From a virus: a DNA stretch of 64,000 nucleotides. The translations under genes and the position numbers were made by a program. Shown here in pieces: positions 5,642-56,222 of the stretch (position 1 is its first letter; each line of letters begins with the position of its first letter). The notes below the pieces were generated by a model. It ran no database searches and had not been told where the DNA came from. It worked only from the letters and a program-made list of their open reading frames with translations. The DNA is taken from the UHGV virus genome UHGV-0214148. The stretch is one strand, 5' to 3'.

Positions 5642-5666
5642 TTTAATACTCCTAAACACTTTTAGC

Positions 5667-6593
5667 TTAATTGTGGGGTACGTAGCCACGGACAAATGTA
5701 GGTGGAATCCAACAAAGTTTTCTCTTTCTTTCACCATTTCTAGGGCCGACCCAATATCTGCGCCAGTGTGCGCGACGGATGTGGGCAGCCTTAGCATGTT
5801 TGATACCTTGCATGGTTTTCAAGTCAGTGTTAAACCCTTTTAGATAATTCACTTGTCCTGGCGTGATATCTATCTTAACATCGCGTTCACGAGGTTTAAC
5901 GTCGTAACTAATACTACCGTTCTTTTTGATTTCCTTGAACTTAATATCATTAAAAGACTCCCTGTAATTGGGCGGGATTAGCGTACACAGAAATATCATC
6001 GAAGTAGCGGCTTTGGCCAGAGATAACCATAGCATCTTTTCTTGTTCGGTCCGTACGCCAGTTGTATAATCGATTTCAACAAGCCCGTTTCCAACACTAC
6101 ATATCTCTAACGAGCAGGTGGCGATTGTGGTAACGCCTTCTGTTAACCCGTAATCAGTATTTGTAGCGATTATAATAAACCTTCTTTTCCCATTTTTTCG
6201 ATAGCCGAGAAAGAAAGTCTCATCCTCTTTACCTACGTCGATTGCTACAGTCCATGTGGGTATAAAGTCCAACCATTCTTCAGGGAATTTACTGGGCATC
6301 TCAGTCTCGAAAACAAGTTCTCTAAGTGCTTGGTTGGATATTAAGGAAGCACCACCGTATAGCCATCCAATTGCCAATGTTTGAGCGTGAAGGGAACGGG
6401 GATCTTTGAGACCTAACTCAGCGTCGTAAGGTATAAAGGCATTGGTTAAATGGTTACGATTCTTTTTTATCCATTTCGAGACAGGATTTTCCTTTATTCG
6501 GTTTTCTTCCATGACATTTTCAAGATGCTGAGACCCCATTTGTCTAAGGCAGTCTTTAATACCTTTTACTTTTTTACTTTTGTACAAATACAT
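5667..6593 (-). CDS. hypothetical protein, paralog of 4742-5641
   Basis: 308-aa ORF; C-terminus AAHIRRAHWRRYW...CWIPPTFVRGY shares the motif with the downstream gene; SD TAGGAGAATAAACC before the ATG. Confidence 0.55.
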   Translation of the reverse strand: MYLYKSKKVKGIKDCLRQMGSQHLENVMEENRIKENPVSKWIKKNRNHLTNAFIPYDAELGLKDPRSLHAQTLAIGWLYGGASLISNQALRELVFETEMPSKFPEEWLDFIPTWTVAIDVGKEDETFFLGYRKNGKRRFIIIATNTDYGLTEGVTTIATCSLEICSVGNGLVEIDYTTGVRTEQEKMLWLSLAKAATSMIFLCTLIPPNYRESFNDIKFKEIKKNGSISYDVKPRERDVKIDITPGQVNYLKGFNTDLKTMQGIKHAKAAHIRRAHWRRYWVGPRNGERKRKLCWIPPTFVRGYVPHN

Positions 6594-42908: not shown

Positions 42909-45900
42909 ATGCCGAGAGAAGACGCGGCGCAGTTTAACGGTACGCTAAGCACAGCGACGTACCCTAACCGATTTAACGTGGTCATTCCGCCTGAAGGACC
43001 TTTTTATCGTATCGGATTAAAACTCACAGTAGCCGACGATACCGCGCCTAACGGACGTCGTACTCTGATTGAGGGGCTGGACTACTATTTAGGCTATTAC
43101 TTTAAAGAACTCGCCGAAGCTGAACAAGATCAGATTTATGGCGGGTTTATGTTGCTTACTGCAACAGAAATCGAATATGAGATTTTAGGGGTAGCACGGC
43201 AGTATCGTGTACCGCAATCTGAAATCGGGAAGTTCTTAGTTCGTACTGACCTGAAAGACCCACGTAACGTGGACTGGTCGGAGTTAATGGCGTACGCGCC
43301 GGTTATTCAACCAATCGACCCCCCTGCTAACTTAGAAGAAGCTATTCTGAGGGACGAGGTCGTTAAAGCGTTGAACGATATCCGCAAGAAAATCATTCAG
43401 CGTTCAACAGAGTTAGATGCGGCCTTCACCGAAGTCACTAACCTTATTTACGAGAACGGTAAAAAGATTTTCGATGAAGAACTATACCAACACCACCTTA
43501 ATCCTAACGCTCACCAGTATACGACCAATGACGTTGGGGCCCTTCCGGTTTTAGGACGTGCTGTTGACGCTACAAAAGCGTTTGGGTTGACAATTGACCA
43601 ACTGGCTACGCTGATGGGTTCGGCGGGCATTGAGCAATCAGACGTTGAACAGCTAATGGGTGAAGCCCTCGGTACCGTTTACGGTCGTTGGGGCACCACG
43701 AACGGTAACGAACTAACGTTTAAAACACCGGGTGGACACATCATCAGCATCCGTGGTGATAAGTGGTTAATTACCTCCCCGCAACCGTTAGTGATTAAAG
43801 CAGACCAAGACAACAACGAATCCGGTTTGGCGGTTGAGTTTAGTGCGGGACTGAATACGCTTTGGGTACACTCTGGGTCAGAACAGGATGTATTAGCACC
43901 GGTCTATAACTCTGTGTATCTCGTTACACCAGAAATGGTGAACATGTACCTGACGTCTGTAACGTTACTTGAAGCGAATGCCTATTTCAAACCGTCAGAC
44001 ACCGTAAAACCGTACGGTACAGCGAAGCAGTCTAACCCACTAACGTTGAACGCGAATATTCCCACAGCAACCGAGTCGGTTTATGGGGTGTTTTCGATTA
44101 CGAATATCGCAACCTCTGTAGCGCTAGGCACTGCTATTTCCCAAAAGGCTGTGACCGAGTTAAAAAACCGGTTGGACTTGTACGTTGACGACGACTACAC
44201 GGTTAACGGTAGAGGGTTTGTTAAGACAGGCGACAACATGGTGTTAACCTTAACGAAGGCCGATTTCGGTATCGATAAGATGAATAACACCACACCCATC
44301 GCTAAACCGGTAACAAAAGCATTAGCGAACGTGCTGAAAAATAAAAGTTTGAAGGTACACACGCACACTACCGCTGATTTGGATAATGTCCCGATTGGTA
44401 GCGCAACAGTGGACGGTATCTTACAGCTGTGGGATGCGATTGATACCACGAATGATAAAGCCGTCACATCACGCCAAGGGTGGCTGTTCGCAAAAGAGAT
44501 TAAGAAGGTCTCTGATAAACTGAATACCCTCTTGCCCGCATGGACAACGGCCGGGAGCAAATATACCAACAATTCGATATTGCCGATCTTGTCGATGGGT
44601 AATTACGAAGGTTATGGTAAAAACATGGATGCGCTCCAGATGGTTATAGGGGTACAACAAGGTAAGCTTTATGCTTTAATTAGCTCTAAATCCGCCCTTC
44701 CGGGAACCGAGGGTATTTATTACGCCGTTGCCGGGTTAAAAAACGACAAAAGTCTTGGTGAAATTTACAAAACAACGTTCCGTTATAAGCCGAAAGGGTT
44801 AGAGACGAATTATCCTGGGGTGGAACTAAAAGAAATTACCGTTACGGGTACCGAAGCATTTATAGCGAAAGGCAGCGACGATAATTACTATTTAGTTAAA
44901 CTGAACGGTTCAATGGATTACACCAAACATACCGATGTCAGGTTGGTAACTTTCTCAGAATTTGTTTCAGAAACAACATGGGAATTTGTGCCGAATATGT
45001 TCATGGATCGTGTGGTCATAGCCGATAACGGCGTCTATGTTTTGCGTACGATGCTAATGGCCGATCTGAAAAACAATAGTCTGGTGGACTACATTAAGGA
45101 TACTCCGCAACCTATGTTCCGTGTTGGGTTATTGCGACTTAATAAAACCGATCGGTTTGAACAGGTTGATTTAAGCTCTACACGAAAAATCGGTAAGTGT
45201 GCCGATTTGGTTGAACCTGGCGCGTTCGATGTAGATAATCCGAATACGAAGCGTCTTGCCTACTTCACTGCGGAAGGCAAAGCGTTGTGGACAGTGAATT
45301 TACAATTAACTAGAGGGGTGTCAAGATGGATAACGCCCGTTGTTAAGGACGGTAATCTGTTAACCGTCGGCGTGTCTGGCGTTTGTCTTGGTTTTTCTTC
45401 AACGAAAGGTACCACATTCGGGCCATGGAATGGTGCTTATCGTCTCGACCTATTAACCGGGGAGGTTGGGTTAGAGACAACTAACATCTTCCCAATCAAA
45501 ATCGATACTACAGGTTGCTACTTAAAAGACGGAACAAAAATAGAGCTGAAATGGAAATGGGCTACTCGAAGTTCTGGCTATATGGCCGACAATAGAATCT
45601 GTGTCGGTGATATGGTTTATTCTTGCTGCTGTTCGACAGAAAAACAACTTGCACCGTCTCTCCATTACCAGAAACTCCCAGAAGGAGTTAGTTATCTGGA
45701 CTATGTTAAGTTGAGTGCGGGGTATGAGGGGCAATCTACGTTTGAAAATCGGATAAACCCTGTGGTGGGTTCGGTGTGGAAACCGTCTATGACTCTACCA
45801 TTGTTCTTCCCAGGAACAAACAAAGTATGGCTTAAACATCAAAAAACGGCTTATTTCATTGAAGCCGAATATGATAAAGATACGACTTATGGTTATCCTG

Positions 45901-48095
45901 GATACGGCGGGTTTGGACCAACATCCCGCCGTGTTGAAAAAAAAGCGAACGAATACGGCGTATTGACAAATATACCGCTGGTTGTTACGCCAGACATACC
46001 GAAAGGTCTACTAGATGGGGCTTACTTTATCGGTGCTGAAAGTAAACCATGTAAAGTTGTTTACGGTACCACTACGGTGGCTAGTGATCGGTTGTCTATC
46101 GATGCGGCAGAATGGGCGAAGTTGACTAATATTGTTCAGTCCAGCCAGTTCTCTGGGGCTTCTAACGGCAACGCCTATGAGCGGATTAGCGTAGCTAAGA
46201 CCAAAAAGAACAACTACAGTTTGTCCTTTTGGGTGCTTGGTCAAACGATGTCTGGTGGTCCGCTTTGTATCGCGATAGTGAGTCTTATCTATAAAGACAC
46301 TGACGGGGTAAATAAGTTTGCTTTTTACTTCTTTCAGGTAAAACCGACTATAACCAACGGGGTCATAAGGTTCGTTAGTTCGGAAGCGAGAATGATGACG
46401 TTCAGGGAAAAAATGGCCAGTAACGCCATTAATCTCTCACCCACAGCTTTTAATGGTGAACTTAAACAACGCTCCGGTCAAGTTTTCCTTTATTCGCAAG
46501 ACGGACAAAAGTTCAGATTCTCAATACATAACCTGGTTGGCGGGAATCTTGTAGGATCAGAGATTTCTTTTGCTTTTGGGATAAACTTGACTAAAAAAGG
46601 AGAATGGTTTACCGGCGAAATTCATCGGGCGTGGGGCTATACGTATACGCTGAATAATACATCTGAAGTCTATATACCCGATCTCTCGGGCATCGCGCTA
46701 TTGACTTGTAACTCGGAAGATTTAAACGAGTTGTATCTCGGTGGCGAACAGTATAGAATCTCTGATTTGTTTAACAAAAAATATACTGTTATCGATAAGA
46801 TTATTATTGGCGGCGTACAAACACAGAGCGGTTGGAATTTCTATCTGACGGAGGAAACCGAGTTAAGTTTTGGAAATAAAAGATATACCGTTCCAAGATG
46901 GTCCGTTGATTTAAGCGATGAATTCCCGACTAATCACGCTAACCAGACATTCTACGTTTATGCTGAAGTGGTCGGTTCTACTGCCCAATACCGCATCGGT
47001 TTAGAGCAGTTAGCTGATACCTCGTCGAGACTGTTTGTTGGGACAGTAACCACTGATTCGAACCGTATTACGGATATCAGTATCGATAAAGTAAAACGGT
47101 TAGGTCGTGTAAAAGAGCTGGAAAATCATGCCTCGGTTGTTGATCAGCACGATGTGGCGCAGGCGTTCGACAGGAAAACTGGTCCACTATTAACAGTGGT
47201 TAATAAACCCGTTAAAGCCATTACAGCATCTGCGAGCAAGGGTGCTGGGTATGTCGATGGCCAGAAATGGAATACGTTGTCCGGGATTGCAACGCGGCCC
47301 AGGTTGCCGGTACAGGAAACCTATTCAGGTTATAAAAGTATCAGCAGGGTGGCGTATGAGAACTGCGCTGACCAGTTCTGGCAGAAAGCGGTTGCTGCGA
47401 ACGTTGCAGCGGCTACTGCTTCTGAGAACAAACAAGCAGCAACCGCGAACATGAAGTGGCTGGGCGCGTATACGAGACCGACTACCGGTGCGAGTGTGTG
47501 TCTGGTACTAAGTCTACGTGTTAAAGTACCTGGTAATCCCGGCACCGCTAATCGTAGACTGAAAATCAGGCTTGCGGCTCCGACAGGTATAACTGAAGTT
47601 CGTTACGGGTTAAATCAGTCTGGCGGTACGATGGCTGAACAGACAGTAACGTTGACTGCCAACAGTTATCTGGAAAAAGAGCACGCCGGATTTAAGCCAG
47701 CCGAAGAAGTTCGTGTTCATGCTACCTTTGTCATTCCAAAAAATGAATACGAGAGTTACCGTACGAAGTTCGGTGCGGTTCAGTTGATTGACGTTGAATC
47801 GAACACTGTCATTAAACAGACAGATATCGACACACCGTTTTTCGTGTACACCGCCACGGAGCAAGCGGCACAATCTGGTTTGGTGTATAAAGCGGTTAAG
47901 AGTCAGTTTCGTCAACTCCCGGCTCAACCTGTCGTCATTGTAACTGATGGACAGACAGGGACTACGCCACCGGTGAAAACCTCGTTTGCTGACGGGACAT
48001 TAACGGTCTACGTGGCAACCACGTACGACGCGGTTAACCCAGCACAAACACGCGATATCGACAAGCTCCAGTTCAATCTTATGTTTACATCTTAA
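42909..48095 (+). CDS. large fiber-like virion protein 3 (putative tail fiber)
   Basis: 1728 aa; N-terminal GPFYRIGLKLTV...LIEGLDYYLG pattern; SD AGGAG precedes the ATG. Confidence 0.55.
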   Translation: MPREDAAQFNGTLSTATYPNRFNVVIPPEGPFYRIGLKLTVADDTAPNGRRTLIEGLDYYLGYYFKELAEAEQDQIYGGFMLLTATEIEYEILGVARQYRVPQSEIGKFLVRTDLKDPRNVDWSELMAYAPVIQPIDPPANLEEAILRDEVVKALNDIRKKIIQRSTELDAAFTEVTNLIYENGKKIFDEELYQHHLNPNAHQYTTNDVGALPVLGRAVDATKAFGLTIDQLATLMGSAGIEQSDVEQLMGEALGTVYGRWGTTNGNELTFKTPGGHIISIRGDKWLITSPQPLVIKADQDNNESGLAVEFSAGLNTLWVHSGSEQDVLAPVYNSVYLVTPEMVNMYLTSVTLLEANAYFKPSDTVKPYGTAKQSNPLTLNANIPTATESVYGVFSITNIATSVALGTAISQKAVTELKNRLDLYVDDDYTVNGRGFVKTGDNMVLTLTKADFGIDKMNNTTPIAKPVTKALANVLKNKSLKVHTHTTADLDNVPIGSATVDGILQLWDAIDTTNDKAVTSRQGWLFAKEIKKVSDKLNTLLPAWTTAGSKYTNNSILPILSMGNYEGYGKNMDALQMVIGVQQGKLYALISSKSALPGTEGIYYAVAGLKNDKSLGEIYKTTFRYKPKGLETNYPGVELKEITVTGTEAFIAKGSDDNYYLVKLNGSMDYTKHTDVRLVTFSEFVSETTWEFVPNMFMDRVVIADNGVYVLRTMLMADLKNNSLVDYIKDTPQPMFRVGLLRLNKTDRFEQVDLSSTRKIGKCADLVEPGAFDVDNPNTKRLAYFTAEGKALWTVNLQLTRGVSRWITPVVKDGNLLTVGVSGVCLGFSSTKGTTFGPWNGAYRLDLLTGEVGLETTNIFPIKIDTTGCYLKDGTKIELKWKWATRSSGYMADNRICVGDMVYSCCCSTEKQLAPSLHYQKLPEGVSYLDYVKLSAGYEGQSTFENRINPVVGSVWKPSMTLPLFFPGTNKVWLKHQKTAYFIEAEYDKDTTYGYPGYGGFGPTSRRVEKKANEYGVLTNIPLVVTPDIPKGLLDGAYFIGAESKPCKVVYGTTTVASDRLSIDAAEWAKLTNIVQSSQFSGASNGNAYERISVAKTKKNNYSLSFWVLGQTMSGGPLCIAIVSLIYKDTDGVNKFAFYFFQVKPTITNGVIRFVSSEARMMTFREKMASNAINLSPTAFNGELKQRSGQVFLYSQDGQKFRFSIHNLVGGNLVGSEISFAFGINLTKKGEWFTGEIHRAWGYTYTLNNTSEVYIPDLSGIALLTCNSEDLNELYLGGEQYRISDLFNKKYTVIDKIIIGGVQTQSGWNFYLTEETELSFGNKRYTVPRWSVDLSDEFPTNHANQTFYVYAEVVGSTAQYRIGLEQLADTSSRLFVGTVTTDSNRITDISIDKVKRLGRVKELENHASVVDQHDVAQAFDRKTGPLLTVVNKPVKAITASASKGAGYVDGQKWNTLSGIATRPRLPVQETYSGYKSISRVAYENCADQFWQKAVAANVAAATASENKQAATANMKWLGAYTRPTTGASVCLVLSLRVKVPGNPGTANRRLKIRLAAPTGITEVRYGLNQSGGTMAEQTVTLTANSYLEKEHAGFKPAEEVRVHATFVIPKNEYESYRTKFGAVQLIDVESNTVIKQTDIDTPFFVYTATEQAAQSGLVYKAVKSQFRQLPAQPVVIVTDGQTGTTPPVKTSFADGTLTVYVATTYDAVNPAQTRDIDKLQFNLMFTS

Positions 48096-48135
48096 CGCCA
48101 CGGGACAAGGACGTCTCGGATTAAGGAGAGTGGCC

Positions 48136-49335
48136 ATGGCCTCCATTGTATACCAATACCCTTTAGATTTAACGGGAAGCCTAACCTCTAACGCCGTGGA
48201 GCGTCAGGTTACGTTAGGTACAGGTAAAGTTAACCGTGCGTTTGCTTTTCCTGATGGACCGTTTTATGCTGATACGTTCCGCTTGCGGGTTGCTAACCGA
48301 CCCGATGCGACGTATGAGCGCGGAACGGACTATGAGTTGATTTTTGCACACCCGGCTTACGAGAAATTGACGAAGAACCGGGAAGTGGTAATGGCGGTTG
48401 TTGTAACGAACACCGCGATTCCGACCGATATCACGGTATCGGCGCAAGTAGTCGGGGGCCCGCAGTCGGCAAACGTGACTGCGATAGAACAGGCGATTGC
48501 TGAGTTGAATCTCGATAATCGAACTGTTGGCTTTAAAGACTTGCGAAATGTTCCTGATACATTTCCGTCGGCACCGACGTATAAAGACGTCGGCGATATT
48601 TACGGCTTCGAATATATCATTACAGTGCTCGCTGGCATTAAAGATGCGATAACGGCGGGCGATGCTGTACAGCTTGAGAACATCAAAGCGATTCTCGAAA
48701 GCCTGAAAAACGATTTCCTGGACGCACTGAACGCGCACATTAACGCCACGGGTAACGTCCACCATCTGGACATTCATCAGGTTAACGGGTTAACGGAAAC
48801 GGAGATCCGTGCACTGATTCGTGACGTACAGTCTGCCATCGATGCAACGATTGCCGATATCAATGCATTGAAGAAAGCGGACGAAGCGTTAGGAAAACGT
48901 ATTGATGCTGTTGTCAAATCTTTGGAAGCGTGGAACGACCAACTTAACGTCGTTGCACAAAACTACCAGAAAATGGCACTGGCAATGGCGAACCTAAACT
49001 CGTTAGTGTTACAGTTACAGAAAAATATCAACGATCTGAGCACCAAACTCAACCAAGCGATTCAACGTATTGCTGCGTTAGAACAGCGGGGTAATGAGTC
49101 CGATCAGAAAATTGATAAACTGCAACAAAACCTGGATGCGCTTAAACAGCAGGTTAATAATAACACGAACGCAATCAGTCAGGCGAACCAGAACCTGCAA
49201 AACCATATTGCGGCAGATAACCCACACACAGGCTATCTCCACAAGAAATACGGTGGTGTGGTTCAGGCTCCAGTACACGTTAACGCTAACTTGACGTCCC
49301 GTGATGACGTTCAGGCAGAAGCGGGTACGAAATAA
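48136..49335 (+). CDS. fiber-like protein 4 with long coiled coil
   Basis: ~400 aa; N-terminal GPFYADTFRLRV...RGTDYELIF pattern; central Gln/Asn/Leu heptad-rich region (residues ~230-360). Confidence 0.55.
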   Translation: MASIVYQYPLDLTGSLTSNAVERQVTLGTGKVNRAFAFPDGPFYADTFRLRVANRPDATYERGTDYELIFAHPAYEKLTKNREVVMAVVVTNTAIPTDITVSAQVVGGPQSANVTAIEQAIAELNLDNRTVGFKDLRNVPDTFPSAPTYKDVGDIYGFEYIITVLAGIKDAITAGDAVQLENIKAILESLKNDFLDALNAHINATGNVHHLDIHQVNGLTETEIRALIRDVQSAIDATIADINALKKADEALGKRIDAVVKSLEAWNDQLNVVAQNYQKMALAMANLNSLVLQLQKNINDLSTKLNQAIQRIAALEQRGNESDQKIDKLQQNLDALKQQVNNNTNAISQANQNLQNHIAADNPHTGYLHKKYGGVVQAPVHVNANLTSRDDVQAEAGTK

Positions 49336-49399: not shown

Positions 49400-49798
49400 G
49401 TGATGGCGATCAGTGTTAAAAATGTACGTGACCGAATCACCAACGTAGAGAACCAAATGGCAACTGGCCCACGTGTTGATCCGCAAGTTGCGTCGAAAGC
49501 ACATAATGCCGCCGACACTTTTTCGGGTTGGACGCCAAGTCGGTTAGACTGCGGGGGAAGTTGCAGCTGGACGTGCTCAAACGGCTGTACGCACGGCTGT
49601 ACGAGTTGTTCGGGCACCTGTACGTCAGTATGTGTAGGTAGCTGCTCCTCTGCGTGCGGTAACCAGTGTACTGGATGTAGTTCAACATGTTCCGGCGGCT
49701 GTTCAGGTTGCAGTGGGACCTGTGGGGGTGCTTGCTCGGGCCGTTGTTCTACGGGTTGTTCTGGTGCTTGCTCTGGTGGCTGTTCTGGCCCAACCTAA
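49400..49798 (+). CDS. Cys-rich precursor-like peptide A (leader plus CxxxC-repeat core)
   Basis: 132 aa. ~49-aa leader (AISVKNVRDRITNVENQ...SRLD), then a core starting CGGSCSWTCS with ~21 Cys, mostly at 4-residue spacing and separated by Gly/Ser/Thr. SD AAGGA upstream. Confidence 0.65.
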   Translation: MMAISVKNVRDRITNVENQMATGPRVDPQVASKAHNAADTFSGWTPSRLDCGGSCSWTCSNGCTHGCTSCSGTCTSVCVGSCSSACGNQCTGCSSTCSGGCSGCSGTCGGACSGRCSTGCSGACSGGCSGPT

Positions 49799-49808
49799 GA
49801 GGTGAAAA

Positions 49809-50207
49809 ATGGCAATTGGATTACCTGCGCTACAAGCGCGGCTAAATAACATTGACAACACTGCATTGAAGAATACGGGTGCAGTGCAAAACTATATTCG
49901 TGGGAAAGCGACGAACAACGCAGACTTATTCGGTGGACAAGCTCGCAACCATTACGACTGTGGTGGGAGCTGTAGCTGGACCTGTTCGAGCTGTTCTGGT
50001 GGTTGTACAGGGAACGCATCAGGCGGCTGTGGTTCTTCGTGTTCTGCAAACTGTGTATCAGGTTGCAGCGCAGGCTGTAGCGGATGTTCGAATACATGTT
50101 CTGGTGGCTGCTCAGGAAGCTGTACGGGGAGTTGTTCTAACTCGTGTGTGGGAAACTGTTCTTCAGGCTGTTCGGGCAGTTGTTCTGGTGGGTGTTCTGG
50201 GAGGTAA
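49809..50207 (+). CDS. Cys-rich precursor-like peptide B (paralog of A)
   Basis: 132 aa; leader ends ...NHYD; core begins CGGSCSWTCS and carries ~20 Cys in CxxxC spacing. SD AAGAGGTG upstream. Confidence 0.65.
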   Translation: MAIGLPALQARLNNIDNTALKNTGAVQNYIRGKATNNADLFGGQARNHYDCGGSCSWTCSSCSGGCTGNASGGCGSSCSANCVSGCSAGCSGCSNTCSGGCSGSCTGSCSNSCVGNCSSGCSGSCSGGCSGR

Positions 50208-50209
50208 TT

Positions 50210-50416
50210 GTGATTAGCCTTAAGAACCTTCGTGATCGATTAGTAACAGCGGAAGGGTATATTACGACCGCTAACGCAAACAACTATATTGCAAACCAGG
50301 GCACCGTGTCTTCAACCAATAACCTTGCCGGTTTACCTTTAAGCCATTATAACTGTAACGGCGGATGTAGCTGGTCGTGTAGCGGTAGCTGTAGTAAAGG
50401 TGCGGGGGGAAGGTAA
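50210..50416 (+). CDS. Cys-rich precursor-like peptide C (short-core paralog)
   Basis: GTG start 2 bp after the peptide B stop, with GGGAGG inside the end of gene B as SD. 68 aa: leader VISLKNLRDRLV...SHYN, then core CNGGCSWSCSGSCSKGAGGR. Confidence 0.55.
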   Translation: MISLKNLRDRLVTAEGYITTANANNYIANQGTVSSTNNLAGLPLSHYNCNGGCSWSCSGSCSKGAGGR

Positions 50417-50565
50417 CTAAGCCCTCCAGTGGTAGTATGTCTATTACGCAATAACCGAGTTAATCGTACGGGTTTACTGCTGAGTTTCAAGTTACCGGTA
50501 GGCAATGGCGCGGTGGGTTCTATACCCTGAATGTCCGTTTGACCGTGAAATAATTGGAGCAATCA

Positions 50566-51453
50566 ATGAAGAATGATTTACATTTAGCGTACAAAACAAT
50601 TTTCAATCATCCACTTCACATTTCTTCCCCTGATTCCGTACGTGCACACTTAGCAGATGAAGTTCGTCTGCTGACTCAGTTGCCGGGCGAATGGCCTAAA
50701 GTGCGCGGACGTTTCTTTACCGATCGTAAAAACTATCGTGTAGAAAATACGTTTAAGATTCGTGATCTGACGGCAGAAAGTGTGGTGGTCTTTACCGGTG
50801 ACTCCGAGTTGCGTGGTAAACTGGTTGCGGGTAAATATTTCTTTAGTGACGGGATTTTGAATAACTCCGTAGATATGGAATTGTTCTTTACCCCATTTGA
50901 AGAAATGGGCGCAAAACCGGTTGCCCGTCGTTGGTGGTCACCGGATTACTTAGGCTCGTTCCCGTATTTCTTTACCCTGGTAACACCAGAAACGAAGAAC
51001 TATTTCGATACGGAATCGTATATCGAAATTGAAGGGTACGAAGCGTTAGGGATTAATTGCTTAGCGGATTTAATGGCGTATAGCTATAAGTTCGTGTGGG
51101 ATCGTGAACGTTCCGTGTGGGTTGCCCTGACAGATGAACACGAAATCACAAAACGCATCCGTAAGCCTTGGATGCAGCATTTGATTCAAACACGTGTTGG
51201 CGAGCATCCGTCAACAGAAGCGGATCTGGCAAAACTCGTTAGTTTCTTAATGACGAAAGTCACGTTAACTAACGAAGAGAAAGCAGCAGTGTCGGCGGTG
51301 TTGGACCGTAACGTAACGTTGGCGGATTTAGAACGTTTAAATGTCCGTTATAAAGACCTTAACCGTATTTTGGAAGCGTATAACTCTCCATTCTTGTTAA
51401 CCCCTGGTGCTAACGTAGACGACGATCCTTTGTTCGCCATTGATTATATTTAA
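50566..51453 (+). CDS. hypothetical protein in peptide/radical-SAM operon (accessory candidate)
   Basis: ~295-aa ORF between the peptide genes and the radical-SAM genes; SD TGGAG; no motif recognised. Confidence 0.55.
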   Translation: MKNDLHLAYKTIFNHPLHISSPDSVRAHLADEVRLLTQLPGEWPKVRGRFFTDRKNYRVENTFKIRDLTAESVVVFTGDSELRGKLVAGKYFFSDGILNNSVDMELFFTPFEEMGAKPVARRWWSPDYLGSFPYFFTLVTPETKNYFDTESYIEIEGYEALGINCLADLMAYSYKFVWDRERSVWVALTDEHEITKRIRKPWMQHLIQTRVGEHPSTEADLAKLVSFLMTKVTLTNEEKAAVSAVLDRNVTLADLERLNVRYKDLNRILEAYNSPFLLTPGANVDDDPLFAIDYI

Positions 51454-51474
51454 AAACGACCGGAGTCACCTGCA

Positions 51475-52398
51475 ATGACAACCAATGCAGAACCAAGGTT
51501 ATCGAATCGTTTATACGATAAACCCACCGTATTGTCCGTAGTCGCTACGTCCAAGTGCAACCTGGATTGTAGCTTCTGCGGTGGAGCCTATTACATGAAT
51601 CGTGAAGATTCTCCGCGAGAGTTTCAACGTGAGCGAATTTTGGAAGCGCTGGAAGCTAATCCAACCATTACCGAAATTCAGTGGACGGGTGGTGAGCCAT
51701 TACTGGCAACCCGTAAAATTGAGGCGTTTGTTGACGAATTAAAAGTGATTCGTCCAGAACTCAAACACCAGTTGTATACCAATGGCTTAAAGATGCGTAA
51801 ATCGCATCTCCCGTTGCTAAAACAGTTTGACAATGTCTACGTTAGCATCGATGGGTTTAAGTCGTCTGAGCGCCCGTTTATGCGCTTTATTGACGAAGGC
51901 TGTTACGAAGCACTGGAAACGATCTACGAGCTGGATAATGTCCAGACTTGGGGTGTCCTGACACGGGACCGTTTAGGGGACAAACGCTGGCACGAAGATA
52001 TTATTCAGCTGCACAGCGCGATTTACCATTACGGTTTCCGTGCAATGACGTTACTCTTAGATGCGAAAATGCCAAAACCTTTATCGCCCGACCACGTCAT
52101 GAACTTTATTTACGGCTACTATCAGGTTCAGGATAACATTGAACGACTGAATGTAGTAAATAGTCGTGAATGCGGCTTTACGGTAAGTAAAGTGTTTGAA
52201 GAAGGGTGTAACGTTTGCAGCGAAAGTCTTTGGATTAATGCAGACGGTGGTGAGCACCAACTCCAGAATGCACCTAACGTTCTGGAATCGGGATGTAACC
52301 AACTGGCCTTCTCTATCGGTGTAGAGGCGTACGAATATATTCGTCGCGTAGTGATGGCAGGGCGTAATAGAGGGGCGGCAAATGAGTCAAGTAAATGA
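51475..52398 (+). CDS. radical SAM enzyme with C-terminal Cys cluster (SPASM/twitch-like)
   Basis: CNLDCSFC at residues 28-35 (CxxxCxxC), GGEPLL glycine-rich motif, and C-terminal cysteines CGF...EGCNVCSES...SGCNQ. Confidence 0.75.
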   Translation: MTTNAEPRLSNRLYDKPTVLSVVATSKCNLDCSFCGGAYYMNREDSPREFQRERILEALEANPTITEIQWTGGEPLLATRKIEAFVDELKVIRPELKHQLYTNGLKMRKSHLPLLKQFDNVYVSIDGFKSSERPFMRFIDEGCYEALETIYELDNVQTWGVLTRDRLGDKRWHEDIIQLHSAIYHYGFRAMTLLLDAKMPKPLSPDHVMNFIYGYYQVQDNIERLNVVNSRECGFTVSKVFEEGCNVCSESLWINADGGEHQLQNAPNVLESGCNQLAFSIGVEAYEYIRRVVMAGRNRGAANESSK

Positions 52399-53704
52399 AT
52401 TCCCTAAGCAGTTAACGTATCAGATCGTAACCAACCTTTCGTGTAACCTGGACTGCGAATATTGTTACGAACGTAAGTACCCGCGTAACAACAAAGCGGC
52501 GGATATTGTTGATTTCTTACACGCCTGTTTTGAACGTGATAAAAACGAACCGAATGTTGAAGTTATTATCGACATTATCGGTGGTGAGCCGTTCATGCAG
52601 CCTAAACTGCTGCTGGCTGCGTTTGAAACCGCTGAGCAGTTGTGTAAAGAACACAACCGACCGTTTATGTTTAGTATCTCCACGAACGGAACGCTGTTAG
52701 ATCGTCCGTTGAACCGTGAGATTGTAGAACGTTGGAAAGACAAACTTTCGGTTGGGGTTTCGATTGACGGCTTACCTGAGTCCCATGACCGTTATCGTAT
52801 CTTCACAACAACACGCCAGGGTTCTTACGAAGCCGCAGTACGTGGCTATAACTACTTAAAAGAGGTTGGCATTGCAGAGCTCGGCGTAAAAGCAACCTTT
52901 ACGTTAGAAACGCTGCCGTTCTATGCTGCGGGGATGAAGTCATTAATTGACATTACTGGCGGTGGGACAATTTCTGGAAACGTAACTTTCGAAGACGTTA
53001 TGCCACGTAGCATGGCGACGTCAATCGCTTTACAGATGATGGATGTGATAGATTACTGGGTTGAGAAAGGATTACACACCAACCCACGTAATATCTTATC
53101 GCACATCATTCCAGAAGGGTTGGATTTCGATACGATTTGGGAACCGAACTGGCGTGACCAGTTACTGTATAATGACACCGTACGGTTGAACCCAGAACGT
53201 TTACGTCCGTTCTGTGGGACGTTAACGCACATGACGTGCTTAGGGTTTGACCGTAAGATCTTTGGCTGTAACCGCTTTATGTCAACGGTAACGTCGCGTT
53301 CTGCGGTGTTTGAGTTGGTAGGTCGGGAATTCGTCAGTCTGGACAACGGTAAATTGTTAGAAGAGATTCAAACGCAATATACCAACTACCCAGAGACCTG
53401 TTTAGGTTGTCCGATGAAACACGCTTGTGGTAGCTGCGCGGCTGCTTCTTACGAGAACGGGGAAGGAACGTTAGAAGACCGTAAAGCGTATCACGCTGAA
53501 CGACGTCAGTGCGGCTGGACGACAGCGAAACTGATGGTGGCGGAATACTGGAAACAGAAGATGGGTACGACGTCAGCAAAAGCGTTCCATGACACGAGCA
53601 TGTGTTATTGCCCACGCTGTGTTCGTGAACGTGCCCAAAAGGAAAAATTATTAAGAGAAGCCAAAGATGAAACCAATTCTGATCAACAATATTACGAAGC
53701 GTAG
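52382..53704 (+). CDS. radical SAM / SPASM-domain enzyme (peptide-maturase-like)
   Basis: CNLDCEYC at residues 21-28, GGEPF, and a C-terminal canonical SPASM pattern CLGCPMKHACGSC (CxxCx5CxxxC) plus further Cys pairs. Overlaps the preceding radical-SAM gene by 17 bp. Confidence 0.8.
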   Translation: MSQVNEFPKQLTYQIVTNLSCNLDCEYCYERKYPRNNKAADIVDFLHACFERDKNEPNVEVIIDIIGGEPFMQPKLLLAAFETAEQLCKEHNRPFMFSISTNGTLLDRPLNREIVERWKDKLSVGVSIDGLPESHDRYRIFTTTRQGSYEAAVRGYNYLKEVGIAELGVKATFTLETLPFYAAGMKSLIDITGGGTISGNVTFEDVMPRSMATSIALQMMDVIDYWVEKGLHTNPRNILSHIIPEGLDFDTIWEPNWRDQLLYNDTVRLNPERLRPFCGTLTHMTCLGFDRKIFGCNRFMSTVTSRSAVFELVGREFVSLDNGKLLEEIQTQYTNYPETCLGCPMKHACGSCAAASYENGEGTLEDRKAYHAERRQCGWTTAKLMVAEYWKQKMGTTSAKAFHDTSMCYCPRCVRERAQKEKLLREAKDETNSDQQYYEA

Positions 53705-54239
53705 AATTCGACTTCTGGATAAGTTTCTGGAAAACAGTAAGCTATTCGGTTGTTATGTGGTGATTAACGGTGAAGATTTTACCGATGACGTAAAACGCTT
53801 ACTGATTCGTCACGGCGTGACTGTAATCATCCCAATGTACTGCACCGAACTTACTGACCTGTCGGTCGCGGAAATTGAAAAACGTAACCCAGGGTTTGAA
53901 GAACGGGTATTGGATTTCCCACGTCACAAAATTGCGTTTCTACGCCGCTCTTTAAGCGAACCCAGCGCAGAATCTATCACTGTGTTGGCATTGTCCTTCC
54001 CCGGCATTACTATCTTCGCAACACGTAACCCGAACTCACCGATTGATGGGTTTTACGATGAGCGGGAGAAATTTAATAGCGTGATTTTTCCTGAGCTAAC
54101 GCCAGAAGAATGCCAGGGTATCCGTATCGATTGGGAATCTGACTTCGACACAAGATTCCGTCATATCGATTTTGAACTGTTAATCGAATTAGGGTTGATT
54201 AAAGGAGACGATGAATGTCTGCTACTGGTGAAGGCTTAA
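53667..54239 (+). CDS. hypothetical protein (operon member)
   Basis: 190-aa ORF overlapping the radical-SAM gene end by 38 bp. Confidence 0.5.
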   Translation: MKPILINNITKRRIRLLDKFLENSKLFGCYVVINGEDFTDDVKRLLIRHGVTVIIPMYCTELTDLSVAEIEKRNPGFEERVLDFPRHKIAFLRRSLSEPSAESITVLALSFPGITIFATRNPNSPIDGFYDEREKFNSVIFPELTPEECQGIRIDWESDFDTRFRHIDFELLIELGLIKGDDECLLLVKA

Positions 54240-54886
54240 CGAAAGAAGAAATCCGTCGCCGTTATTTTGCGCACGATTTACCGATCGACCGTCATGGTAA
54301 CTACATGGAGAAAATCGGTAGCGAAGATCACGGCCGTACAGGGTTTTGTGCGTTACTGCACTATAAGCTGATTGATGGGATGTCTGATCGCGAAGCATTG
54401 GAACAAATGCGTAACTACGACATGTCTGAAATCGAAGCACGGTTTACGCTACAGAAAGCGAAAGACTTTGTTAACGACACGTTGGGGATTGACCTGGAAG
54501 AAATTCGTGCAGGTTTACGTTCCACGGTGCGGTACATCTTTACCGATGTTCAGAAAATTCTAAGCGCTTTGGAATTCCGTTATCAGGATGCACGCTATGC
54601 TGAGATTCAGGTAGGTGATTTCACTTTCCAGGCAGATGAGAAGTCACAGGTAGCACTGAGTCGTTATATCCAGTCAGAAACTGCGCCAGCGTATTGGTTA
54701 ACGGCTAACAACACCCGTATCGAACCGTTTACGTTAGAACAGTGCAAGACGTTGCTGGCAGCAATCGTTGAGCGTGATCAAAGACTACACCACGCAATGT
54801 CTGAGCAGAAAAGAGAAGTCAGGGCTTGGGCTGAAGCACGTGATTACGATTCGATAAAAGCGTTTGCGTTAGAGCAAGGGCTGTAA
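54215..54886 (+). CDS. hypothetical protein (operon member)
   Basis: 223-aa ORF; SD GGAG 7 nt upstream; overlaps the previous ORF by 25 bp. Confidence 0.5.
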   Translation: MSATGEGLTKEEIRRRYFAHDLPIDRHGNYMEKIGSEDHGRTGFCALLHYKLIDGMSDREALEQMRNYDMSEIEARFTLQKAKDFVNDTLGIDLEEIRAGLRSTVRYIFTDVQKILSALEFRYQDARYAEIQVGDFTFQADEKSQVALSRYIQSETAPAYWLTANNTRIEPFTLEQCKTLLAAIVERDQRLHHAMSEQKREVRAWAEARDYDSIKAFALEQGL

Positions 54887-54894
54887 TCGACAGC

Positions 54895-54955
54895 GAAAAA
54901 AAAAAACAGTATACCTACCTCCCGTAATAGGAGGTAGGTATTTTTATTTTTTCTT
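54895..54955. terminator. bidirectional rho-independent terminator
   Basis: A-run, hairpin ATACCTACCTCC-CGTAAT-AGGAGGTAGGTAT (54911-54941), then TTTTTATTTTTT; between convergent genes. Confidence 0.75.
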
Positions 54956-55484
54956 AGGACGTAAAACCGTCCAGCTCACCGTTGGTGGTGGCCAGGTCAA
55001 TACGATTATCAACAACCTTCGGCGTAATTACGAAAGTTGCCATTACACCTGGCTTATAACGGAGGTTCTTTTCAGTAACGGTACACGTTACCGTACGCAG
55101 AGTGACGCTATCGTGTTCGTCTTTCTGGTCTTCGGTGGTGTACTCAACGTCACCAGGTGCGATAGAGTCGTCAGGTTTTACTTTATTGATGTAAAACTGT
55201 AATCGGTCGCGTAGTTCGTTTTCTCCAGTCCAGAGAGCCAAATCGTCCGTTACCTCAATGCGTCCGACAACGCCAGGTTCCAGACGATCGTAATGCAGTT
55301 CGATTGCGCCTTTAAAATTTTCAGACTCTGTACGTGCGGTCATGGTAACTTTGGTATTTTTATCGCCCTTTTCAAGAGCGACAGGTTGACCAAAAGTTAC
55401 CTCTTTATCAGTGACCTGATGCGGTAGCTCTGTGTTAGCAGCATTATAAAGCGCAACTAACATCATCTGGTTAGTAGCTGCCAT
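54954..55484 (-). CDS. hypothetical protein, paralog of 55552-56083 (conserved C-terminal GELDGFT)
   Basis: 176 aa; shares KITLTAKAES-NFKG and the C-terminal LDGFT motif with its neighbour. Confidence 0.5.
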   Translation of the reverse strand: MAATNQMMLVALYNAANTELPHQVTDKEVTFGQPVALEKGDKNTKVTMTARTESENFKGAIELHYDRLEPGVVGRIEVTDDLALWTGENELRDRLQFYINKVKPDDSIAPGDVEYTTEDQKDEHDSVTLRTVTCTVTEKNLRYKPGVMATFVITPKVVDNRIDLATTNGELDGFTS

Positions 55485-55551: not shown

Positions 55552-56083
55552 TTACTCTTTAGGCGCTGGTGCGGTGAAGCCATCCAGTTCACCTTCCAAA
55601 CCGTTCAGTGCTACTTTCTCAATAGCTGGAGGGGTAACTTTATACGTCGCAACAGTACCTGGCAGGAACTTCAAGTGGCCAGCCACAACCGTTACCACGT
55701 AAATGGTTTTGCCTTCTTCTTCACGAGAGATAGTTTGCAGGTCGTTTTCACCGAACTCGTCATCGGTGTACCCTTTCTCAGCCATGGCTGCGTTAACTTT
55801 CGCCAGGATTTTCGTCGGTGAATCGAAATCGGTAGTAGGTGCAGTTACTTCAACTTCACCAACGATGTCGCAGGAAAGACGAGTATAGTGGAATTCTTTC
55901 TCGCCTTTGAAGTTCTGGCTTTCTGCCTTGGCGGTCAGAGTAATTTTAGTGTTGCGGCCAGCTTCTCCGGTGAACTCAGCGACAGCACTAAAATTAACAT
56001 CATTTACAGTCAGCTTAGAAGCAGTTTGGTTGTTTTTAGCAATTACAATCTCGATAAGCTGCTGTTGAAAAGTTTTAGCCATT
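55552..56083 (-). CDS. hypothetical protein, paralog of 54954-55484
   Basis: Start placed at the ATG preceded by GAGGTAAAAACA; ~177 aa; C-terminal GELDGFT. Confidence 0.5.
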
Positions 56084-56222
56084 GTTTTTACCTCGTAAGT
56101 AGTATGGGTGGTTTGCATAGTATTGTTCGGATTATAGAAGTGTTGTTAATAGTTATGACAGACAGCAGTAAGGGTTGTCTGTAAAATTATTATTTTTTAA
56201 CTTTTTATAGAAGGGTGAAAAC

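What the first reader, a model, noticed from the sequence alone, without database searches (positions are those of the whole stretch)
49400..54886. Phage-encoded radical-SAM/SPASM peptide-maturation cluster with three Cys-repeat precursor peptides
Three tandem small genes encode a conserved ~48-aa leader followed by Gly/Ser/Thr-rich cores with Cys roughly every fourth residue (~21, ~20 and 4 Cys). Downstream on the same strand, with overlapping or tightly spaced genes, are two radical SAM enzymes (CNLDCSFC; CNLDCEYC with C-terminal CLGCPMKHACGSC SPASM motif) and three unknown ORFs. Leader-plus-Cys-core peptides next to SPASM radical-SAM enzymes is the architecture of ranthipeptide (SCIFF) and sactipeptide RiPP loci, which install Cys-derived thioether crosslinks. 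Here it sits in a virulent-phage-like genome directly after the tail-fiber genes, and the cores are far longer and more Cys-dense than SCIFF-type precursors as I recall them. The product could be a crosslinked virion or fiber component, a host-modulating peptide or an antibacterial; these are speculations.
Basis: partly seen in the sequence, partly recalled or inferred. Interest (0 to 1): 0.95.

Follow-up and report, generated by a model that had tools for sequence, protein, structure and literature searches.

The report
Radical-SAM-matured cysteine-repeat tail-fibre module
A giant Salmonella-type phage encodes three small proteins with a cysteine at every fourth residue next to two radical-SAM enzymes, and the same gene set recurs in unrelated phages where the cysteine repeat is the tip of a tail fibre, so the enzymes probably cross-link a virion fibre part rather than make a secreted peptide.

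Summary
Three adjacent genes encode a ~48-residue N-terminal segment followed by (C-S/T-G-x)n cores with 21, 20 and 4 Cys. They are followed by a 299-aa protein, two radical SAM enzymes and two further ORFs. The window is an SPN3US-like jumbo phage.

The large enzyme is a SPASM protein. Its closest relatives are the thioether-forming maturases CteB and PapB and NCBIfam's 'CXXX-repeat target' family TIGR04115, but it scores below every curated cut-off.

The main new result concerns context. In 30-odd related loci the order is always Cys-repeat protein, then a homologue of the 299-aa protein, then radical SAM enzyme(s). In P2-like, lambda-like and other phages the Cys repeat is the C-terminal end of recognisable tail-fibre proteins, joined by the same 'NAxxLxGxxxxYYxCxxCSWxC' motif found in the window's 'leaders'. 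No protease or exporter is present.

The best reading is a radical-SAM cross-linked tail-fibre component. A classical released RiPP remains possible. The chemistry and virion incorporation are untested. In SPN3US two of the peptides are unannotated and the third is called in the wrong frame. I found no paper describing this.

The parts
49403..49798 (+). Cys-repeat protein A: 131 aa with a ~50-aa N-terminal segment followed by 21 Cys at CxxxC spacing. Predicted substrate.
   Evidence: Matches phrog_6085 at E 1.5e-40. The count of 21 Cys and the spacing pattern are conserved in all orthologues. pN 0.218 against pS 0.754 versus SPN3US.
49809..50207 (+). Cys-repeat protein B: 132 aa, 20 Cys, with one conserved 8-residue gap in the repeat. 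Predicted substrate.
   Evidence: Scores 19.4 bits on TIGR04114, whose cut-off is 20. Its leader is found by tblastn in 62 phage records.
50210..50416 (+). Cys-repeat protein C: 68 aa with exactly 4 Cys and a conserved tail CS[KRH]GAG[GN]R. A minimal substrate or a short paralogue.
   Evidence: pN 0.097 against pS 0.794.
50554..51453 (+). Conserved accessory protein of 299 aa (SPN3US gp165 homologue, phrog_8030). It is always encoded between the substrate gene and the radical SAM genes. Role inferred as substrate presentation or chaperoning. An alternative ATG start lies at 50566.
51475..52398 (+). Radical SAM enzyme 1: 307 aa, CNLDCSFC motif, plus 2-3 conserved C-terminal Cys (twitch-like). 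Its reaction is unknown.
   Evidence: PF04055 at E 6e-14. Invariant C28/C32/C35, C245 and C274. Best solved relatives are TigE, SkfB, YydG and MoaA at ~1e-15.
52382..53704 (+). Radical SAM/SPASM enzyme 2: 440 aa, CNLDCEYC motif and a C-terminal Cys-rich SPASM region. Predicted Cys cross-linking (thioether) maturase. It has no N-terminal RRE domain.
   Evidence: PF04055. TIGR04115 at E 6.5e-33 and PapB family at E 1.2e-33, both below cut-off. Eight invariant or near-invariant auxiliary Cys. Profile against PDB is best to CteB 5WGG at E 1.5e-36, aligned from CteB residue 103.
53667..54239 (+). ORF7: 190 aa (phrog_7988), found only in the jumbo-phage clade. Its predicted fold resembles a radical SAM-type partial barrel, but it has no CxxxCxxC motif. 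Function unknown. It is not a protease by fold.
54215..54886 (+). ORF8: 223 aa with a DUF4376 domain. This domain recurs next to the fibre or radical SAM genes in two unrelated loci. Membership of the module is uncertain.
   Evidence: PF14301 at E 4.8e-11. Weak hit to tail-fibre phrog_1807. DUF4376 neighbours in L167 and L175.
54911..54941 (.). Terminator-like hairpin with T-runs on both strands. It marks the end of the + strand gene string.
48130..49335 (+). Context: a 401-aa coiled-coil virion protein (SPN3US gp167 homologue) encoded immediately upstream. Candidate carrier of the Cys-repeat proteins (inferred).
   Evidence: phrog_2163 at E 5e-103. gp167 was detected in SPN3US virions (PMC5694885 supplement).
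42909..48095 (+). Context: a 1728-aa homologue of SPN3US gp168, described as a 'baseplate/tail fiber candidate'.
   Evidence: PMC5694885.

Best explanation
This is a phage tail-fibre maturation module.

The three small proteins are not precursors of a secreted peptide. They are short fibre-type proteins. Each has an N-terminal ~48-residue segment of the kind that precedes the Cys repeat in full-length tail fibres. That segment is followed by a fixed-length (C-S/T-G-x)n rod.

Proposed mechanism (all steps inferred):
1. In the infected cell the SPASM radical SAM enzyme (52382-53704), a relative of the thioether-forming maturases CteB and PapB, cross-links the cysteines to nearby residues. This turns a Gly/Ser-rich chain into a rigid polycyclic rod.
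2. The second radical SAM enzyme (51475-52398) adds a further, unknown modification.
3. The 299-aa protein encoded between substrate and enzymes presents or chaperones the substrate. This would replace the recognition domain that the enzyme lacks.
4. The product is built into the tail-fibre or baseplate apparatus, probably on the coiled-coil virion protein encoded just upstream.

Shown here: gene content, homologies, synteny, conservation, and the fusion of the repeat to real fibres in other phages.
Inferred: that the enzymes modify the repeat, that the bonds are thioethers, and that the small proteins end up in the virion.
For: Enzyme identity:
- Both enzymes hit PF04055.
- Enzyme 2 aligns full-length to TIGR04115 and to the PapB family at E ~1e-33.
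- Its best solved relative is CteB at E 1.5e-36.
- The SPASM cysteines are invariant.

Substrate link:
- A same-strand Cys-repeat ORF is present in 78 of 80 viral loci, against 4 of 79 control loci.
- Starting from the accessory-protein side, 3 of 3 independent loci show repeat, then accessory, then radical SAM.

Fibre link:
- The Campylobacter P2-like prophage tail fibre (PF12571; tail-fibre PHROGs at E 1e-54) ends in the repeat. It is followed by the accessory protein and two radical SAM genes.
- Deferribacter and L166 lambda-like prophages carry HxH-repeat fibres ending 'NADQLGGQ..YYRCSDCSWTCSS'.
- The Cys-repeat proteins of L103, L108, L101 and L109 match tail-fibre PHROG families.
- The junction motif aligns with the window's three 'leaders'.
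- Synteny is invariant in 23 loci.
- In the window the cluster follows homologues of SPN3US gp170, gp169 and gp168 (fibre candidates) and gp167 (a virion protein).

Fixed architecture: the counts of 21, 20 and 4 Cys and the spacing patterns are conserved across orthologues with 46-74% leader identity.

No RiPP accessories: no protease or transporter was found.
Against: - There is no direct evidence that the window's small proteins are in the virion.
- SPN3US virion proteomics lists gp160 and gp167-170 but not gp161-166. However, two of the peptides were unannotated and gp166 is in the wrong frame, so they could not have been found.
- A small protein with an N-terminal segment followed by a Cys-rich core is exactly the format of a RiPP precursor.
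- The pre-Cys fibre motif alone is too short to be significant. An HMM built from fused fibres ranks peptide B first in the window, but at E 0.45.
- Enzyme 2 scores below the curated cut-offs of every named family, so the chemistry cannot be transferred with confidence.
- The cores contain almost no Asp or Glu, which are the acceptors used by PapB.
- In many distant loci the neighbouring genes could not be assigned.
Confidence: 0.55

Rival explanations
1. A classical RiPP. The three peptides are precursors whose leader guides the radical SAM enzymes. The leader is then removed by a host or unidentified protease. The polycyclic Cys-rich core is released at lysis as an antibacterial, signalling or host-modulating peptide.
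For: The leader-plus-core format is present. The enzyme is related to the ranthipeptide and sactipeptide maturases PapB, CteB and SCIFF, and to the CXXX-repeat family annotated as a peptide maturase. Multiple paralogous precursors are typical of RiPP loci. gp161-166 are absent from the SPN3US virion list.
Against: No peptidase or exporter is found in the cluster. The homologous repeat is covalently part of 250-570-aa tail-fibre proteins in other phages with the same enzymes and accessory protein. The position inside the tail module is conserved from P2-like prophages to jumbo phages. Strict conservation of repeat number is unusual for a diversifying bioactive peptide.
Confidence: 0.2
2. A modified assembly factor. 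The Cys-repeat proteins are modified by the enzymes, but they act only during tail or fibre assembly (for example as a length ruler, scaffold or chaperone) and are absent from the finished particle.
For: The location in the tail module is next to assembly-type genes; a tail assembly chaperone is annotated nearby in SPN3US. The repeat length is fixed. The neighbouring non-structural gene products are absent from the virion proteome.
Against: In other phages the repeat is fused to the distal end of the fibre protein itself. This argues that it stays with the fibre unless it is cleaved off, as some C-terminal fibre chaperone domains are. That possibility was not tested.
Confidence: 0.12
3. Metal- or cluster-binding proteins. 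The Cys repeats bind metal ions or iron-sulfur clusters in a metallothionein-like way, or stabilise a fibre by metal coordination. The radical SAM enzymes act on another substrate.
For: Cys density is ~25%. Metal-stabilised fibre tips are known: T4-type HxH motifs, and such motifs occur in the Deferribacter and L166 fibres.
Against: The near-perfect co-occurrence and fixed gene order of repeat, accessory protein and SPASM enzyme across more than 100 loci is the signature of an enzyme-substrate pair. The enzyme's closest relatives all modify Cys-containing peptides.
Confidence: 0.06
4. A different radical SAM chemistry on the same substrates. Examples are Cys oxidation to formylglycine (anSME-like), epimerisation, methylation or C-C cross-links, with thioethers not being formed.
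For: Enzyme 2 falls below every family cut-off. anSME and QhpD also appear among its relatives. Enzyme 1 resembles the epimerase YydG as much as the thioether synthase SkfB. No Asp or Glu acceptors are present in the core.
Against: The best relatives by a wide margin are thioether-forming enzymes: CteB at E 1.5e-36 against anSME at 3e-16, and PapB/TIGR04115 at 1e-33 against the sulfatase maturase at 4e-16.
Confidence: 0.07

Closest known systems
NCBIfam 'CXXX-repeat' radical SAM system (TIGR04114 repeat target, TIGR04115 maturase). It is defined bioinformatically. I found no paper on it in the searchable library.
   Same: Cys at every fourth residue in long Gly/Ser/Thr-rich repeats, encoded beside a SPASM radical SAM enzyme. 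Enzyme 2 aligns over the whole TIGR04115 model (E 6.5e-33). Peptide B reaches 19.4 bits on TIGR04114. Canonical members that pass the cut-off (400 and 444 bits) were found on viral contigs just after baseplate genes.
   Different: Enzyme 2 scores 115 bits against a cut-off of 350, making it a sister clade. The window's clade has a conserved accessory protein (phrog_8030 family) that is absent from all 56 canonical-type loci. It usually has a second radical SAM enzyme and a distinct first module, 'CxxCSWxC' rather than 'C...C.GLC'. No TIGR04116-type partner was detected.
PapB/PapA (freyrasin, a ranthipeptide)
   Same: PapB is the best-scoring NCBIfam family for enzyme 2 (E 1.2e-33). PapB makes six thioethers within repeated Cys-X3-Asp motifs (PMC10739248), which is the same i to i+4 periodicity.
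   Different: The score is 117 bits against a cut-off of 340. The window's cores have no Asp or Glu acceptors, are 3-4 times longer, and belong to a phage tail module.
CteB/SCIFF (Clostridium thermocellum thioether maturase, PDB 5WGG)
   Same: It is the best solved relative across the radical SAM core and the SPASM domain (E 1.5e-36).
   Different: The alignment starts at CteB residue 103, so the N-terminal peptide-recognition domain is missing. The SCIFF maturase model scores 59.5 bits against a cut-off of 425. SCIFF peptides have six Cys in about 45 residues.
QhpD/QhpC (quinohemoprotein amine dehydrogenase maturation)
   Same: QhpD is a SPASM radical SAM enzyme that installs Cys thioether cross-links inside a protein subunit that stays part of a larger assembly, not in a released peptide (my own knowledge of the system). 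The family appears among the relatives at E 6e-17.
   Different: The relationship is distant (61 bits against a cut-off of 453). QhpC has only three cross-links to Asp or Glu, and the system is not viral.
Metal-stabilised tail-fibre tips (T4 gp37/gp12-type HxH motifs; T5 L-shaped fibre)
   Same: These have the same position and presumed purpose, namely stiffening a thin distal fibre segment. HxH-type repeats precede the Cys repeat in the Deferribacter and L166 fibres. The Deferribacter fibre weakly matches the T5 fibre 8HQZ (E 0.02).
   Different: Stabilisation there is by metal coordination in a trimeric fold and involves no enzymes. Here dedicated radical SAM enzymes are encoded.

Membership tests
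Radical SAM superfamily (PF04055) | CxxxCxxC cluster-binding motif and a match to the family model above its cut-off | tested here: met
   Enzyme 1 scores 53 bits and enzyme 2 scores 57 bits against a cut-off of 29.5. The motifs CNLDCSFC and CNLDCEYC are invariant in alignments A3 and A1.
SPASM-domain radical SAM enzymes | C-terminal 7-8 Cys motif for two auxiliary 4Fe-4S clusters | tested here: met
   For enzyme 2, C278, C286, C296, C340, C343, C349, C352 and C377 are invariant or nearly so in 18 homologues. It aligns through the SPASM region of CteB and of the SPASM NCBIfam models. No Pfam SPASM model appeared in the Pfam scan. Enzyme 1 has only 2-3 extra conserved Cys, so it does not meet this feature.
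TIGR04115 CXXX-repeat target radical SAM maturase | Score at or above the curated cut-off (350 bits) | tested here: not met
   114.7 bits at E 6.5e-33 with full-length alignment. For comparison, viral loci L111 and L126 score 400 and 444 bits.
TIGR04114 Cys-rich CXXX repeat target | Repeat model score at or above 20 bits; Cys at every fourth residue | tested here: inconclusive
   Scores are 14.4 (A), 19.4 (B) and 12.8 (C) bits. The Cys periodicity itself is met.
PapB-family ranthipeptide maturase (NF047865) | Score at or above 340 bits; Cys-X3-Asp/Glu substrate motifs | tested here: not met
   116.8 bits. The cores lack Asp and Glu.
SCIFF system (TIGR03974 maturase) | Score at or above 425 bits; a six-Cys precursor of about 45 aa | tested here: not met
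   59.5 bits. The precursors have 21, 20 and 4 Cys.
Sactipeptide / ranthipeptide (chemical classes) | Cys sulfur linked to the alpha carbon (sacti) or to a beta/gamma carbon (ranthi) of another residue | not testable with these tools
   This requires MS/MS and NMR of the modified product.
RiPP (leader-dependent, leader removed) | A leader peptide is recognised by the maturase or an RRE and is cleaved off; a protease or exporter is often in the cluster | tested here: inconclusive
   No protease, exporter or RRE was found by Pfam, NCBIfam, PHROGs or fold search. Enzyme 2 lacks the N-terminal RRE of CteB. Cleavage itself cannot be tested here.
Phage tail-fibre protein | Part of the virion tail; encoded in the tail module; fibre-type sequence repeats | tested here: inconclusive
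   The tail-module position is met. Homologous repeats are fused to proteins matching tail-fibre PHROGs and PF12571. Virion presence of the window's three small proteins is untested. The pre-Cys motif is not significant on its own.

The most novel reading that the evidence does not exclude
Radical SAM enzymes encoded in phage tail modules post-translationally polycyclise a (C-S/T-G-x)n domain at the distal end of tail fibres. This would be a kind of virion-protein modification not described before. It is present from P2-like and lambda-like prophages to nucleus-forming jumbo phages such as SPN3US. On this reading, the database family of 'CXXX-repeat RiPPs' (TIGR04114/TIGR04115) is largely this phage tail system rather than a bacterial natural-product pathway.
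Probability: 0.45. Interest if true: 0.9.

Novelty: new variant of a known kind. Interest (0 to 1): 0.8.

Why it matters
If the reading holds, phages use radical chemistry to harden or shape a part of their host-recognition apparatus. That would add a new class of virion-protein modification. It would also give a biological role to a radical SAM/Cys-repeat family that databases list only as a putative peptide-maturation system.

It bears on three practical areas:
- phage structural biology, through a new, enzyme-built fibre element with no solved structure;
- phage engineering, because fibres that need maturases will not assemble correctly without them;
- enzymology, through very long, regular substrates, including a natural 4-Cys minimal one.

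It is directly testable. SPN3US is a genetic model with amber mutants and published virion proteomics, and there the three substrate genes are unannotated or called in the wrong frame.

Tried and rejected
Searches that gave no useful result:
- Pfam and NCBIfam gave nothing for the peptides beyond the sub-threshold TIGR04114 hits, and nothing for the 299-aa protein or ORF7.
- I tested whether ORF7 is a leader peptidase. Its fold instead resembles a radical SAM-type partial barrel without the cluster motif, and generic TIM barrels score nearly as well, so this is only a hint.
- The PDB holds no sequence resembling the Cys repeat.
- Nine literature searches found no paper linking these genes, CXXX repeats or SPASM enzymes with tail fibres.

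Searches with limited yield:
It returned mostly unrelated radical SAM/SPASM loci, which I used as a negative control.
- An HMM of the pre-Cys fibre motif alone was not significant (E 0.45). The leader-fibre homology therefore rests on the motif together with the first CxxCSWxC module and on synteny.
- Seeding with five baseplate or tail proteins recognised tail genes in only 19 of 56 canonical-type loci. PHROG scans of four further loci found tail-protein matches in one (L114) and nothing assignable in the other three. The tail context of that distant group is therefore shown only in part.

Rejected idea: that the large fibre proteins of the window are themselves the substrates. They carry no Cys repeat.

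Full report
**What is there.** The + strand between 49400 and 54886 carries eight tightly spaced or overlapping genes.
- Three small genes encode Cys-repeat proteins: A (49403-49798, 131 aa, 21 Cys), B (49809-50207, 132 aa, 20 Cys) and C (GTG 50210-50416, 68 aa, 4 Cys). Each is preceded by a Shine-Dalgarno-like sequence.
- The Cys-to-Cys distance is 4, with a few 3s and one 8. Across orthologues the unit reads C-[S/T]-G-[G/S/T].
- No other ORF in any frame of the 64-kb window has such a pattern, and background Cys is 2.7%.
- The frames are under purifying selection. Against SPN3US, synonymous sites are saturated (pS 0.75-0.79) while pN is 0.10-0.22, the same range as the enzymes.
- The peptides are followed by a 299-aa ORF (50554-51453), radical SAM 1 (51475-52398), radical SAM 2 (52382-53704), ORF7 (53667-54239) and ORF8 (54215-54886, DUF4376).
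- The string ends at a terminator-like hairpin at 54911-54941.

**Where it comes from.**
- The window matches IMG/VR contig UViG_3300029126_000001 (225 kb) at 100%.
- It is about 72% identical in DNA to Salmonella phage SPN3US and relatives over the enzyme genes.
- The cluster corresponds to SPN3US gp161-gp166. It directly follows gp170, gp169 and gp168 ('baseplate/tail fiber candidates') and gp167, a protein detected in virions.
- In SPN3US, peptides A and C are not annotated, and gp166 is an out-of-frame ORF over peptide B. In Erwinia phage pEa_SNUABM_29, opposite-strand ORFs are annotated over A and B.
- The leader of peptide B is found by tblastn in 62 phage records (Salmonella, Escherichia, Erwinia, Cronobacter, Proteus). 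It is always 'hypothetical' or unannotated.
- PHROGs holds the peptides as phrog_6085, of unknown function.

**The enzymes.**
- Both match PF04055.
- Radical SAM 2 has the invariant CNLxCxYC motif and eight conserved C-terminal Cys.
- It aligns full-length to NCBIfam TIGR04115 ('radical SAM peptide maturase, CXXX-repeat target family', E 6.5e-33) and to the PapB ranthipeptide maturase family (E 1.2e-33). It scores 115-117 bits against cut-offs of 350 and 340.
- A profile of 18 homologues finds the thioether-forming SCIFF maturase CteB (5WGG) as best solved relative (E 1.5e-36; next is anSME at 3e-16). The alignment starts at CteB residue 103, so the N-terminal peptide-recognition domain is absent.
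- Radical SAM 1 has the cluster motif plus only two or three further conserved Cys. It resembles TigE, SkfB, YydG and MoaA in the core only.
- PapB makes six thioethers in Cys-X3-Asp motifs (PMC10739248). The periodicity is the same here, but the cores have no acidic acceptors.

**The decisive context.**
- More distant relatives of radical SAM 2 in 'bacterial' assemblies lie in prophage tail modules.
  - In Campylobacter pinnipediorum (P2-like), the tail-fibre protein (PF12571) ends in 'GCNGCSGSCSGSCSSGCTACSGCSGSCSG...'. It is followed by a 250-aa protein and two radical SAM genes, then DUF1353, sheath and tube.
  - In Deferribacter abyssi (lambda-like, after a GpJ homologue), a 302-aa protein with HxH fibre repeats ends '...KATNADQLGGQAGSYYRCSDCSWTCSSSCTGSC...' with 28 Cys. 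It is followed by a 250-aa protein and two radical SAM genes.
- The 250-aa proteins are homologues of the window's 299-aa ORF (E 1e-10 and 4e-10).
- Further loci repeat the pattern: L166 (GpJ context, HxH fibre), L167, L168 (T7-type fibre and a tail assembly chaperone), L170 (next to Peptidase_S74 fibre genes), and L171 and L172.
- In 23 tabulated loci the order is always Cys-repeat gene, accessory gene, then radical SAM gene(s).
- The accessory family occurs in all loci whose enzyme is at least 31% identical to the window's, except one with a diverged candidate. It occurs in none of the 56 more distant loci.
- Starting instead from the accessory family (107 cluster representatives among 1.84 billion proteins), three further loci all showed the same order. 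One had a 409-aa Cys-repeat protein after GpJ and a DUF4376 protein.
- The non-repeat parts of the larger Cys-repeat proteins match tail-fibre PHROG families: L005 at 4e-54, L103 at 1.5e-40, L108 at 1e-31, with L101 and L109 near 1e-10.

**Leader or fibre segment?**
- The last ~25 residues before the repeat, plus the first module, align between the window's three proteins and the fused fibres: [A/T]xNA[D/E]xLxGQxxxxY[Y]xCxxxCSW[T/S]C.
- The pre-Cys part alone is too short to be significant. An HMM from fused fibres ranks peptide B first in the window, but at E 0.45.
- The homology claim therefore rests on the motif together with the Trp-containing first module and the shared gene set.
- The N-terminal ~17 residues ('ISLKNLRDRL...') recur in small-format proteins of distant phages. 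Whether this is a docking helix or an enzyme-recognition element is unknown.

**Fixed architecture.**
- Peptide A has exactly 21 Cys and the same '4444-3-...' spacing in every orthologue examined.
- B has 20 Cys with a conserved 8-residue gap in the Seoulvirus and related Erwinia phages.
- C always has 4 Cys and a conserved tail.
- A defined length fits a structural element.

**The accessory ORFs.**
- ORF8 carries DUF4376, which also neighbours the system in L167 and L175.
- Nothing in the cluster looks like a leader peptidase or exporter.

**The wider family.**
- Of 80 viral loci recovered with the enzyme profile, 78 have a same-strand Gly/Ser/Thr-rich Cys-repeat ORF. The two exceptions have a 3-Cys minimal version. 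This compares with 4 of 79 loci carrying generic radical SAM/SPASM genes.
- The distant viral group includes enzymes that pass the TIGR04115 cut-off at 400 and 444 bits.
- Their Cys-repeat proteins have up to 92 Cys and a different N-domain and first module.
- In two such loci the genes sit directly after baseplate hub, wedge and tail genes, and in one of them before an endolysin gene.
- At least 19 of 56 have a baseplate-type gene in the flank, against 1 of 79 controls. That one control is itself a Cys-repeat locus.
- Other loci could not be assigned.

**Conclusion.**
- The closest described family is the CXXX-repeat system rather than SCIFF, but the window's system fails the membership cut-offs and forms a sister clade with its own accessory protein.
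- The evidence favours a tail-fibre component matured by radical SAM enzymes (confidence about 0.55) over a released RiPP (about 0.2).
- Untested: the bond chemistry, the roles of the second enzyme and the accessory protein, and virion incorporation of the three small proteins.
- SPN3US proteomics could not have seen the peptides because they were not in the database. The enzymes and accessory protein are absent from the virion list, as expected for maturation factors.
- I found no publication on this in the searchable library.

Noticed in passing
L001/L003 (SPN3US) 4950-5979; L002 (pEa_SNUABM_29) 4952-5974: The reference annotations miss the peptide genes. In SPN3US, A and C are unannotated, and SPN3US_0166 (gp100 in RefSeq) is an out-of-frame ORF over peptide B. 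In pEa_SNUABM_29, opposite-strand ORFs are annotated over A and B, and only C is called correctly.
   Followed up: yes
L111, L126, L119 and other loci L110-L165: Canonical TIGR04115-type maturases (400-444 bits, cut-off 350) occur on viral contigs. They sit beside proteins with up to 92 Cys and an N-terminal 'DFxxLKxxVxxEIxRR' domain. In two loci these genes lie between baseplate genes and, in one of them (L126), an endolysin. The database 'CXXX-repeat peptide' family may be mainly a phage tail system.
   Followed up: partly
window 53667-54239: The ORF7 model resembles a radical SAM-type partial barrel but has no CxxxCxxC motif. It may be a degenerate third radical SAM paralogue. Some relatives (L166, L172, L100) carry three or four intact radical SAM genes.
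   Followed up: partly
window 54215-54886; L167 10743-11414; L175 3125-3760: A DUF4376 protein recurs next to the Cys-repeat/radical SAM genes in three unrelated phage types. PMC5694885 lists SPN3US gp161 in a large paralogue family of expected head proteins, which does not fit a tail role.
   Followed up: no
L005 8068-8433; L172 11014-11406: A DUF1353 protein follows the radical SAM genes both in the Campylobacter P2-like prophage and in an unrelated 84-kb phage contig.
   Followed up: no
L107 6883-7176 (and L106): This is a minimal variant. A 97-aa protein ends in only three Cys (CESCAMGC), directly upstream of the accessory gene and two radical SAM genes. Here the system lies next to a helicase-like gene rather than obvious tail genes.
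   Followed up: partly
window 54954-55484 and 55552-56118 (- strand): Two adjacent paralogous genes (176 and 188 aa, both ending '...ELDGFT') converge on the cluster's terminator. The SPN3US counterpart of the first (gp160) is an abundant virion protein in the proteome table.
   Followed up: no
window 42909-48095 and 48130-49335: The 1728-aa fibre candidate and the 401-aa coiled-coil virion protein share an N-terminal domain (both match phrog_2163). This suggests they attach to the same site on the particle.
   Followed up: no
one search hits H25-H30 (Salmonella phages SPFM5, 6, 9, 10, 12, 15): Several SPFM genome records match only short stretches of the radical SAM genes. Their annotated radical SAM proteins align poorly (P0081-P0089). 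This looks like frameshifts or sequencing errors in those records.
   Followed up: no
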